Assembly (NCBI GenBank): GCA_964016885.1
Contig: CAXHJY010001131.1
Coordinates: 1-64,000, forward strand
Direction of reading: 5' to 3'
Source: Eledone cirrhosa
Taxonomy: Eukaryota
DNA: 64,000 bases
Of this stretch, positions 2,985 through 45,094 are shown piece by piece. Numbering within the stretch: position 1 is the first letter of the stretch; every line of letters starts with the position of its first letter. A model generated the notes under the pieces. That model did no database searches. It had not been told where the DNA came from and worked only from the letters and a program-made list of their open reading frames with translations. Position numbers and translations under genes: made by a program.

Positions 2985-3158
2985 CCCGGGTTGAGTCGGG
3001 GATAACCACAGTAAGTAAGGTACTCAATACATGACAGAGTAAAATTTTTTTTTATTTTATAGAAGGAGCTTCTACAGGACTAGTACTGTTTCATTCAGAT
3101 TTCATCTGAATGAAACAGTACTAGTCCTGTAGAAGCTCCTTCTATAAAATAAAAATAA

Positions 3159-17997: not shown

Positions 17998-18100
17998 CTG
18001 ATGATTTCTAAAGAATGAAACAGTTCTAGTCCTGTAGAATCTCATCTATATTAAAATATTTATACTCTGCTATATATTTTTATGTATTTTATACTCTGCT
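17998..18100 (+). mobile_element. HHR element family A, 5'-truncated immediately before the CUGAUGA core
   Basis: (TA)n a CTGATGA tttctaaagaat GAAA cag ttctagtc ctg TA gaatct. The 5' strand of stem I is replaced by (TA)n. Confidence 0.75.
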
Positions 18101-28878: not shown

Positions 28879-30222
28879 TCAGTGGTTTGGCGAGTGTTGT
28901 TTTATAGAATGCTGGTGGTGGTGGGCTGGATTGTGCTGCTGTGCTAGTGTCTGCACAAGAGACTGCGATATAGAATGTGAATTGAGGTTGATGGCCGTTG
29001 AAATTAGTGGCGAGCCATTGTTCGCCCCGTTTGTGGACTGTAACGGACTACCACCTCCTCCATGCGTGTAGGAGACTGGGGTATGTGCTTGAGACATCGT
29101 ATGACCTACAATTGATTGCGATAAGGAATGTGAAGGTATGGATGTAGGTATCAGCGGAGATCCACCACCACCACTATTCGACCGCATTGGACTTCCTCCA
29201 CCTTGCATGGAATTTTCCGAAGTTTGAAGAAATTCTCCGTTCGGGCCGATAGTGCCGGGAGGAGTCATGCGTTTTTCTTTTTGTCGTCGATTACAAAACC
29301 AAACACGCACGACTTCTTTTTCTAATTGCAGTTGGTCAGCTAGGTTCGATATTTCCTGTGCTGACGGTTTCGGTTGCTTAATGAAATGGTTTTCTAAAGC
29401 GCCCTTCACTGTAACTTCGATACTCGTTCGCTTTTTACGTTTTCTTCCTTGAGCAGCTATTTTGTCAATACTGGTAGGAGATCCGGAAGTGGAATCGGCC
29501 TCCTCCAGCCATTTCTGTAGTAGAGGTTTTAATTTACACATATTTTTAAAACTCAATTGCAGTGCTTCGAAGCGACAAATGGTTGTCTGGCTGAAAACGT
29601 TACCGTAAAGGGTACCAAGCGCTAGTCCGACGTCAGCTTGTGTAAAACCTAATTTTATACGTCGCTGTTTAAACTGCTTAGCAAATTGTTCCAAATCGTC
29701 CGAAGTTGGTGCATCTTCATCGGAGGGTTCGTGGTGGTCTACCTCAGGATCAGGTTCTCTTAATAACGATGGATGCAACTGTTGTCCAGGGGTTAGCATG
29801 CCATTCATGTGAATACCGTAACCATGGTGTTGAAGTTGTGTGGCTCCATTTGTCATGTTTAGATGTGAAGAAACAGGCGAATGCCAAGCGTATGGCGATT
29901 GCATCTGTTGATTAACGCGGTTGTGTTGAGCATTCGGATGCGTTTCCAACACCTGTCCTTTGATGTCCTGCTGGTGGATCATATTAGACCAGTGGTTATT
30001 GTCCGTGTGAGATATACCGATCCATGGATTCGGATGATGAGTGAGGTGATGACCATTCTGTTGTTGGGTAGCCATATATTTCATGTCAGGTAATTCACGG
30101 TGCTGGTACTGCGTGGGTTGGGTAACGTGCCCTTGCATAACCGATGATGGATCTACTTGGACCGTAGCTAGAGATGATGGAGTGGCCGATGTTAGGTACA
30201 AACTCGTGGCAGAAGCAGCCAT
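28879..30222 (-). CDS. POU3: Class III POU homeodomain transcription factor (Brn-1/2/4, Oct-6, vvl family), intronless, 447 aa
   Basis: POU-specific domain [72 protein letters not shown], class III linker [16 protein letters not shown] and homeodomain [10 protein letters not shown]...[15 protein letters not shown]. Good Kozak context (aaaccATGg). A single coding exon is typical of class III POU genes. Confidence 0.98.
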
Positions 30223-30384
30223 GGTTTGTATAGCTCCGTTTTCTCAATCTAACTTGTAAAAAGCAGGCTGGTACGTACGATTAAGTGTTAAGAGAAGTAT
30301 TGTGATAGAGATTCGCTATAGCGTCCGCCACACATATCTACTTATCTTCCTCCTCTGTCCGTACAACTCGTCATCTAGCAGCCA

Positions 30385-32337: not shown

Positions 32338-32535
32338 AGGAACGAGTAGGACCCCGACGGCTGAGCTCAAGCCGTTTCGACGGCTAATTCTGGACAGAAT
32401 TAGCCGTCAAAACGGCTTGAGCTCAGTCGTCGGGGTCCTACTCGTTCCTATTACCCACTCTACTACCCTAAGTATTGAGTACTTTGGTGCGTTATGGTTC
32501 CTTACCACATTTCCTTCGTTATATATATATATATA

Positions 32536-32589
<54 letters not shown>

Positions 32590-32775
32590 AATATATATAT
32601 ATATGTATATATAGTCTTTTAGTCGTTGATCTTAGGGTAGTAGAGTGGGTAATAGGAACGAGTAGGACCCCGACGGCTGAGCTCAAGCCGTTTCGACGGC
32701 TAGTTCTGGACTTTCTGGGTCCAGAACTAGCCGTCGAAACGGCTTGAGCTCAGCCGTCGGGGTCCTACTCGTTCC

Positions 32776-35202: not shown

Positions 35203-36127
35203 TCTTTATAAAATAGCTTCAGTCATTACACTGCGGCTATATGCTGGAGACCCACTTTGGTTCAGTCGCAAGTCCATTTCCTTTTCACGTATGGTACTTA
35301 TTTTGTCGAACAGCTAGTACGTCAGAGGTCTTTCGTCACACTTTCTGTGACATCCTCAATGACTATTAAATTACATCTGTGCTTCCTCGTATATATATAG
35401 TTCAAGAATAAACGAGACAATTACAGAGATACAAAAACAATCTTGTAAGGTTCAGGCGTTTAATCCTTACAATTGTTTCGGTACGTATTTGATATAACGT
35501 ATAGTTACTTCTTGTGTCACACACACACACACCACATATACGCATACATAAACACACATATATATATATATATGTATATATAGTAGAGAAAGAGAGAGAA
35601 GTACGTTAGATATACAAATACAAATTTATCGTACCTATTTGAGTTTGTGTGTGTTTGTATGTGCGTGTGTGCGTATGTATGTGTATATGTGGGCGTGCGT
35701 GATTTTGTGCGTGTTTCGGTGTGTGCGTGTGTGTTTGTGTGTGTGTGTTTAAGTCAAGATCTAGTGTGGCTGAAGTTGTTAAACGGGTGTTAAGAAAAAG
35801 ATTTTATATATACAGCGGTGGTGTTGTTGTTGGTGGTGGTGCTGGTGGTGGTAGTGGTGGTGGTGGGGATTGATATGGTGTTGGTGGTGGGGATAGAGGA
35901 AAAGGGGGTTAGAGACGATAAGAGAAGTATGTCAGTATAAATTTATGTGTACGTAGACCAGATACACACACACATTCTCGCCTACATTTACACACACACA
36001 CACACACACAGACATATTCGTACTTACATGCAAATGCACATATTTATACACTTACACACACTGAAATACACACAGACACACAGACACACACATATATATA
36101 TATATATTTATAGTTTTAATATAGATG

Positions 36128-36178
36128 AGATTCTACAGGACTAGAACTGTTTCATTCTTTAGAAATCATCAGGAATCT
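36128..36178 (-). ncRNA. Type I hammerhead ribozyme fold (family A), complete
   Basis: Minus strand reads agattc CTGATGA tttctaaagaat GAAA cag ttctagtc ctg TA gaatct. Confidence 0.75.
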
Positions 36179-36204
36179 GATTCCTGATGAAATCATCAGG
36201 AATC

Positions 36205-36255
36205 AGATTCCTGATGATTTCTAAAGAATGAAACAGTTCTAGTCCTGTAGAATCT
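36205..36255 (+). ncRNA. Type I hammerhead ribozyme fold (family A), complete
   Basis: agattc CTGATGA tttctaaagaat GAAA cag ttctagtc ctg TA gaatct. 6-bp stem I, GUA triplet; family tail continues to about 36340. Confidence 0.75.
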
Positions 36256-36338
36256 CATCTATATTAAAACTTTTATACTCTGCAATGTATTGAGTACCTT
36301 ACTTACTGTGGTTACCTCCGACTCAACCCGGAATAACG

Positions 36339-36423
<85 letters not shown>

Positions 36424-36914: not shown

Positions 36915-36962
36915 TTTATATCTGACGATGTTGCAGATGTGCAACGAAAGATCTTTGTTAGA
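36915..36962 (+). ncRNA. Minimal hammerhead fold with degenerate stem I
   Basis: CTGACGA t gttgca gatg tgcaac GAAA gatc TT. Perfect 6-bp stem II and palindromic AAGATCTT; ends just before a short (TA)n. Confidence 0.5.
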
Positions 36963-39704: not shown

Positions 39705-39754
<50 letters not shown>

Positions 39755-39757
<3 letters not shown>

Positions 39758-39804
39758 TTCTACAGGACTAGAACTGTTTCATTTTTGAGAAATCATCAGG
39801 AACC
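39755..39804 (-). ncRNA. Type I hammerhead ribozyme fold (family A variant) within fold-back element 39753-39915
   Basis: Minus strand reads ggttc CTGATGA tttctcaaaaat GAAA cag ttctagtc ctg TA gaagcc. Confidence 0.6.
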
Positions 39805-39914
39805 GCTGATGAAACAGTTCCAGTCCTGTAGAAGCCGTTTCTATATTAAATATTTACACTCTGCTATGTATTGAGTACATTACGGTAGTTACCCCCGATT
39901 GAACCCGGGATAAA

Positions 39915-44844: not shown

Positions 44845-44902
<58 letters not shown>

Positions 44903-44914
44903 TTAATATAGATG

Positions 44915-44965
44915 AGATTCTACAGGACTAGAACTGTTTCATTCTTTAGAAATCATCAGGAATCT
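44915..44965 (-). ncRNA. Type I hammerhead ribozyme fold (family A), complete, in fold-back element 44899-45092
   Basis: Same sequence as 36128-36178. The opposite-strand copy begins at TGATGA (44966) and lacks C3 and the 5' strand of stem I. Confidence 0.75.
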
Positions 44966-45094
44966 TGATGATTTCTAAAGAATGAAACAGTTCTAGTCCT
45001 GTAGAATCTCATCTATATTAAAACTTTTATACTCTGCTATGTATTGAGTACCTTACTTACTGTGGTTACCTCCGATTCAACCCGGAATAACTGT

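What the first reader, a model, noticed from the sequence alone, without database searches (positions are those of the whole stretch)
36110..36340. Two complete, identical hammerheads back-to-back on opposite strands (family A)
agattc-CUGAUGA-stem II-GAAAcag/cugUA-gaauct is intact on both strands (36128-36178 minus, 36205-36255 plus). They are joined by a nested mini-palindrome (gattcctgatgaaatcatcaggaatc) built from further pieces of the core, which suggests repeated template switching. The same HHR sequence occurs at 44915 and the core at 17998, suggesting a young family. A transcript in either direction could either self-cleave or snap back into ~70 bp of dsRNA, a potential ADAR or Dicer substrate, about 6 kb upstream of POU3. 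Caveat: stem II is short and closed by U.U instead of the usual purine-pyrimidine pair, so activity may be weak.
Basis: partly seen in the sequence, partly recalled or inferred. Interest (0 to 1): 0.72.

Follow-up and report, generated by a model that had tools for sequence, protein, structure and literature searches.

The report
Back-to-back Penelope stub at RNA start
This mirror-image pair of hammerhead-ribozyme motifs is one of about three thousand tiny head-to-head insertions of a Penelope-type jumping gene in this genome, and the pairs likely meet at the ribozyme because the element's predicted capped RNA begins right there, so the single copy is ordinary but the family hints at which RNA strand these elements copy.

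Summary
In detail: a perfect 79-bp inverted repeat with a full hammerhead core on each strand. It is not a special locus. It is a 230-bp stub of a Hydra-clade Penelope-like retrotransposon in (TA)n. Full-length parents exist, one with an intact RT + GIY-YIG ORF. The genome has 15,745 exact tail matches and 2,901 back-to-back pairs; inverted arms and opposite-strand hammerhead pairs are published PLE features. Arms stop sharply at the first base of stem I, 30 nt below a conserved TATA box and in an initiator-like word: 39 of 100 arms end at +1 to +3, 4 at -2 to -28. An extra G often precedes +1. Likely mechanism: uncleaved, capped sense RNA is copied from two internal sites, both cDNAs run off the 5' end and are joined; cDNA fold-back remains a rival. 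Read-through RNA is predicted to hairpin, not self-cleave. Nearness to the POU gene is expected by chance. No RNA data were available. The scan found this reading before on other DNA of this genome.

The parts
36112..36178 (-). Inverted arm: element positions +67 to +1, carrying a complete hammerhead motif at 36128-36178; joined on the left to a (TA)n-rich flank
36179..36204 (.). Nested junction palindrome: +2..+13 in sense, then +15..+2 in antisense; templated filler at the head-to-head joint
   Evidence: (D12, I1)
36205..36255 (+). Type I hammerhead motif, +1..+51: stem I 6 bp, core 36211-36217, U.U-closed 3-bp stem II, GAAA 36230-36233, 4-bp stem III with 8-nt loop, predicted cut after 36249. 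36205 is the predicted transcription start base of the parent element
36256..36340 (+). Rest of the element's 5' leader; +68 to about +136 (36272-36340) is the unpaired 'tail', ending in a small predicted hairpin about 45 nt before the parent's ATG; followed by (TA)n/(TG)n
44899..45091 (+). Second young stub of the same family: inverted arm +67..+1, sense arm from +8 with tail
17998..18078 (+). Single-arm fragment (+7 to about +87) in (TA)n
2986..3146 (-). Head-to-head stub of an older subfamily (joint inside stem II)
39751..39913 (+). Head-to-head stub of an older subfamily
28879..30243 (-). Neighbouring POU-homeodomain ORF (class III label recalled from the linker sequence, not tested); not part of the element

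Best explanation
This is a dead-end 230-bp insertion of a Hydra-clade Penelope-like retrotransposon, likely made when the element's reverse transcriptase copied the front end of its own uncleaved, probably capped sense RNA from both sides of a cut in (TA)n DNA. Shown: the parent element, the copy numbers, the end positions. Inferred: transcription starts at the first base of hammerhead stem I, 30 nt below a TATA box. One cDNA starts at +133..+139 and the other at +60..+73. Both run off the 5' end, often gaining one C opposite the cap. The two 3' ends are then joined with trimming, microhomology or short templated filler (here the nested palindrome). The two hammerheads are passengers: the stub has no TATA box, and a read-through RNA is predicted to fold into a 79-bp hairpin that blocks both.
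For: Parent: TATA-hammerhead-tail-ORF-3' region-TATA-hammerhead units of 5.4-6.0 kb (L173, L182); L173 has an uninterrupted ORF with all Hydra motifs. Hard stop at +1: of the first 100 listed arms spanning +3, 57 run on natively through the TATA region, 39 leave at +1..+3 and 4 leave at -2..-28 (hand count). Of 90 consecutive tail-bearing places, the innermost arm end is -1..+4 in 35, +5..+11 in 17, -2..-30 in 1, beyond -30 in 15 and beyond +11 in 22. A TATA-type box lies 16-24 nt above stem I in all five reference long copies although the spacer differs. Extra G: 20 of 50 distinct (TA)n-joined copies that keep +1 have G at -1, where the native base is C and the flank is A/T; 85 of 100 when C is excluded. 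No peak of ends at the cleavage site +46, matching unprocessed template use in vitro (PMC11167929). Two independent arms: in 15 of 42 short two-arm loci the inverted arm reaches at least 3 nt further 5' than the tail arm, in 12 the reverse. Same source for both arms: 28 of 2,858 pairs differ at a stem II loop marker that splits about 30:20. A lizard PLE protein nicks and extends both strands and starts at two internal sites (PMC11167929).
Against: No RNA evidence: the start site, cap and strand are inferred from DNA. The extra G is confounded: the base after the 3' strand of stem I is also C, so a cDNA end that re-pairs through stem I and extends one base gives the same G. Longer stem-I-type extensions occur (ATG at -3..-1 in 15 of 85). 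The bases above +3 also resemble a 3' splice acceptor, and in D. virilis the intron end maps to helix I (PMC4209133). Unequal arms can come from later deletion at a palindrome tip. This locus's nested centre is explained equally well by two successive fold-backs of one cDNA. Arm matching is also expected if subfamilies were active at different times. D. virilis Penelope uses a TATA-less internal promoter (PMC2377424, passages). Samples are the first places on one chromosome, not deduplicated, and exact-match patterns miss diverged copies.
Confidence: 0.6

Rival explanations
1. Same sense RNA and same run-off at +1, but one cDNA only: its 3' end folds back and copies itself (here twice), then jumps to the other target end. 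Unequal arms arise by later deletion at the tip.
For: Arms are almost always identical at the subfamily marker (2,830 of 2,858). Two successive fold-backs reproduce 36179-36204 exactly (sequence). Stem-I-type extensions are visible at some joints.
Against: In 15 of 42 loci the inverted arm holds 5' sequence that the tail arm lacks, about as often as the reverse (12), in copies 93-99% identical to the reference. Long inverted arms end at the same outer point near +60..+67 as short ones (L033, L051, L081, L096), which looks like an RNA start site for the RT.
Confidence: 0.27
2. Self-priming on an antisense template, as proposed for rotifer Penelope elements, gives the head-to-head palindrome.
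For: Published hypothesis for head-to-head junction palindromes and intron retention (PMC3846280, passages).
Against: It does not predict a stop at a TATA/initiator-spaced base on the sense strand or an added G there.
Confidence: 0.07
3. A selected regulatory switch (self-cleavage versus dsRNA) acting on the neighbouring POU gene.
For: Perfect hairpin, -133.7 kcal/mol for 36105-36280; 5.9 kb from the POU ATG.
Against: One of 2,901 such pairs; arms identical to the commonest family sequence; no TATA box; hammerhead pairs predicted absent in read-through RNA.
Confidence: 0.03

Closest known systems
Hydra clade of C-terminal-endonuclease Penelope-like elements, including Hydra-1_Obim (Craig et al. 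2021, PMC8557442; passages, section 11 and supplement passages read)
   Same: Single RT + GIY-YIG ORF with the DKT, RW(K/R), CxCx5C and CxxC/CxH motifs; hammerhead in the pLTR; (TA)n target; inverted 5' copy plus a tail at one end.
   Different: A different family from Hydra-1_Obim: other protein and hammerhead sequence by eye, and the searched hammerhead word was absent from the supplement text held. Unit 5.4-6 kb because of a long 3' region. Thousands of minimal stubs joined at the predicted start site.
PLE minimal hammerheads (Cervera and de la Pena 2014, PMC4209133; parts 1-2 of 4 read)
   Same: Type I hammerhead in both pLTRs, most copies solo, dual motifs on opposite strands 100-700 bp apart already noted, palindromic loop 3, low in vitro activity for metazoan motifs.
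   Different: Here stem III is 4 bp with an 8-nt loop, stem II is 3 bp closed by U.U rather than G-C, and the pairs abut directly.
Anolis Poseidon element PAc in vitro (Frangieh et al. 2024, PMC11167929; parts 1-2 of 4 read)
   Same: AT-rich target, both strands nicked and extended, two internal RT start sites that define the tail, uncleaved RNA as template.
   Different: The parts read do not link inverted arms to run-off at the transcription start; the tail here is about 70 nt.
Adineta Penelope inserts (Arkhipova et al. 2013, PMC3846280; passages read)
   Same: Inverted pLTR, tail, junction palindromes, putative TATA plus initiator in the pLTR.
   Different: They proposed self-priming on an antisense template; the end profile here points to a sense template.
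Animal non-LTR retrozymes (bioRxiv 10.64898/2026.07.22.740005; part 1 of 5 read)
   Same: Non-coding hammerhead repeats related to PLE pLTRs.
   Different: Retrozymes are head-to-tail tandem units; this stub is head-to-head and is a direct piece of an autonomous element.

Membership tests
Hydra-clade PLE (parent element) | Single ORF with RT and C-terminal GIY-YIG endonuclease | tested here: met
   L173 ORF uninterrupted, YRDD motif as in published Hydra proteins; Pfam GIY-YIG E=0.003, below the curated cut-off, and no Pfam RT hit on the 559-aa piece scanned
Hydra-clade PLE (parent element) | DKT in place of DKG; RWK motif | tested here: met
   DKT present; RWR in this family, RWK in relatives L068/L077
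Hydra-clade PLE (parent element) | CxCx5C linker; CxxC and CxH around the conserved E and N; no CCHH | tested here: met
   Read from the L173/L182 translations
Hydra-clade PLE (parent element) | pLTR-ORF-pLTR with hammerheads; inverted copy and tail; (TA)n target | tested here: met
   adjacent inverted arm in 55 of 90 places
Hydra-clade PLE (parent element) | Placement within the Hydra clade on an RT tree | not tested
   No tree built; reference proteins were seen only in a supplement
Type I hammerhead ribozyme | Core C3-A9, G12-A14, A15.1-U16.1, H17 | tested here: met
Type I hammerhead ribozyme | Stems I-III conserved across subfamilies | tested here: met
   Stem I has one compensatory change (A-U to C-G); the stem II loop varies while UUC/GAA is kept in most variants; stem III was fixed by the search pattern, so it is not an independent test
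Type I hammerhead ribozyme | 10.1-11.1 base pair | tested here: not met
   U.U in all variants; a known natural exception (PMC3088659)
Type I hammerhead ribozyme | Rfam hammerhead model match | tested here: not met
   None among 141 matches at E<=10 in 36108-36340
Type I hammerhead ribozyme | Self-cleavage | not testable with these tools
   Active fold -4.2 against -7.6 kcal/mol for the MFE of the monomer; loop III can pair between two copies
Non-LTR retrozyme | Two or more head-to-tail units each with a hammerhead | tested here: not met
   This locus is head-to-head

The most novel reading that the evidence does not exclude
Penelope-like elements build their head-to-head inverted repeats by twin priming on one capped sense RNA. 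In this family the RNA starts exactly at hammerhead stem I, so thousands of stubs map the transcription start, the cap and both RT start sites from DNA alone, settling the sense-versus-antisense template question.
Probability: 0.45. Interest if true: 0.68.

Novelty: new member of a known kind. Interest (0 to 1): 0.4.

Why it matters
The locus itself is ordinary. The family matters because the origin of PLE inverted repeats and the polarity of the template are named as open in the papers read (PMC3846280, PMC8557442). The stubs give exact, testable coordinates: RNA start at +1, RT starts near +136 and +60..+73, uncleaved template. They also explain why genomes fill with solo or paired hammerheads, and they supply thousands of perfect hairpins that could feed dsRNA pathways when they fall inside transcripts.

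Tried and rejected
Rfam scans of the window and of the locus gave only hairpin-driven microRNA matches below their gathering scores and no hammerhead. The first genome search was biased for the junction by its query, so counts come from tail-only or core-only queries. Run search: no RNA holder listed. Laying reads on the locus could not show presence or absence, since both flanks are simple repeats and no piece spans it. Hammerhead cleavage as the source of the 5' ends was rejected: no peak at +46. A splice acceptor was judged less likely: many arms keep +1/+2 and no common upstream exon appears. RT stalling at the RNA fold was judged less likely, since a stall should fall 3' of the fold, not after it (inference). 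The '+142' ends were the end of my reference; one search gives the true ends (+133 in 14, +136 in 54, +137 in 4, +139 in 6, continuing in 2, of 80 scored out of 120 tried). The anchor under-counts direct (TA)n joints, so one search is the fair count. Searches for a paper linking PLE inversions to twin priming or to start-site run-off listed no relevant title (listings only, in a library that lacks most subscription journals).

Full report
Observation. The region holds a perfect inverted repeat, 36112-36190 against 36193-36271. Each arm contains a 51-nt type I hammerhead motif with CUGAUGA, GAAA and GUA. The centre, 36179-36204, is made of two short pieces of the same motif. Related pieces lie at 44899-45091, 17998, 2986-3146, 39751-39913, 23863 and 36447. 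The POU-homeodomain ORF is at 28879-30243 on the minus strand, 5.9 kb away. Rfam does not call the hammerhead.

What it belongs to. A 25-mer from the unpaired right end has 15,745 exact matches in the 3.0-Gb genome, against 0 for the control. The back-to-back core pattern with at most 30 nt between has 2,901 loci. Longer copies give the native upstream sequence. Following them led to full units: TATA, hammerhead, tail, ATG at +182, RT and GIY-YIG ORF, a long 3' region, then TATA and hammerhead again, 5.4-6.0 kb in all (L173, L182). L173 has an uninterrupted ORF; L182 has one internal stop. The protein has DKT, RWR, YRDD, CxCx5C and CxxC/CxH, the features listed for the Hydra clade (PMC8557442 section 11; supplement passages). 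It differs from Hydra-1_Obim. No tree was built.

The layout is routine. Among 90 consecutive tail-bearing places on one chromosome (the first 90 of 15,745, not deduplicated), 55 have an adjacent inverted arm and 26 keep the core start on both arms. Inverted copies with a tail at one end are described for PLEs (PMC8557442, passages; PMC3846280, passages), and so are dual hammerheads on opposite strands (PMC4209133, parts 1-2). Raw short reads of two other samples show opposite-strand joints near +4..+25 and several-fold higher depth over +1..+136 than upstream (RAD libraries, so depth is rough).

Where the arms end. Numbering from the first base of stem I (+1 = 36205): tail arms end at +133 to +139 in 78 of 80 scored loci, mostly +136. 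Inverted arms end outward at +60 to +73 in 50 of 55. Inward there is a sharp step. Of the first 100 listed arms spanning +3, 39 leave the native sequence at +1..+3, 4 at -2..-28, and 57 run on through the TATA region (hand count). +1 lies 30 nt below TATAAATA in an initiator-like word (the YYANWYY consensus is recalled). A TATA-type box is kept 16-24 nt above stem I in the five reference copies whose spacers differ. There is no peak at the cleavage site +46. In copies joined straight to (TA)n and keeping +1, the base at -1 is G in 20 of 50, T in 14, C in 12 and A in 4. With C excluded it is G in 85 of 100. RTs adding C opposite a cap is recalled knowledge. The confound is real: re-pairing of the cDNA end through stem I adds the same base, and longer extensions of that kind occur. 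Six loci with G directly before +2, which stem I cannot supply, lean toward the cap (small numbers).

One cDNA or two. In 42 short two-arm loci (of 55; dropped were long, diverged or widely spaced ones), the inverted arm reaches further 5' in 15, the tail arm in 12, and they are equal in 15. A plain fold-back cannot give the first class without later deletion. Both arms share a subfamily marker in all but 28 of 2,858 pairs, while the marker splits 30:20 in the first 50 loci. So both arms come from one molecule or one source, unless the subfamilies were active at different times. In vitro, a lizard PLE nicks and extends both strands, starts at two internal sites that define the tail, and uses uncleaved RNA (PMC11167929, parts 1-2). 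The nested centre of this locus fits either model: both cDNA ends carry the same +2..+13 extension, or one cDNA folded back twice.

The ribozyme. Across subfamilies stem I shows one compensatory change, the stem II loop varies freely while its three pairs and the U.U closure stay. The fold was therefore likely under selection in active elements. U10.1-U11.1 is a described natural variant (PMC3088659, passages). The active fold is not the monomer's lowest-energy state, and loop III can pair between two copies, like the dimer-dependent, slow PLE hammerheads (PMC4209133). No RNA run was available to test editing or small RNAs.

Verdict. A new family member of a known clade, in a known layout; the locus is one of thousands and its position near the POU gene is expected by chance. 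The value lies in the end profile, which likely records a capped sense template and makes the published antisense self-priming idea (PMC3846280) testable. Earlier notes of this scan reached the same reading for other families of this genome; they are not independent support. My literature searches listed no paper stating it, but the library is partial, and supplements of the bioRxiv preprint could not be seen.

Noticed in passing
window 36274 to 36204 joint in reads; L182 5650 to 5574: Raw reads repeatedly join about +63/+70 back to about -14, implying direct repeats of roughly 77 nt each holding one hammerhead; such mini tandems could form the dimeric ribozyme.
   Followed up: no
L174 (G000:C1:83679000-83688000): Tandem array of about 1.07-kb units, each with TATA, hammerhead and tail followed by (TA)n; the strand imbalance 3613 to 1605 hints at a much larger array elsewhere.
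   Followed up: partly
window 21593 (+), 43594 (-), 46380 (-): Further CUGAnGA...GAAA motifs of unrelated sequence, probably other PLE families.
   Followed up: no
window 32416-32687; L025, L046: A second abundant palindromic family with a similar tail word, also in (TA)n.
   Followed up: no
window 36922-36957: Fragment of a very high-copy repeat with a hammerhead-like core; over 200,000 reads per RAD run match it.
   Followed up: no
L065, L069, L071, L077, L068: Other PLE families, Hydra-like and not, are nested inside or beside copies of this family, probably through the shared (TA)n target.
   Followed up: no
L052: Copy in which sequence from about 450 nt upstream joins directly to -3, an internal deletion of the promoter region.
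   Followed up: no
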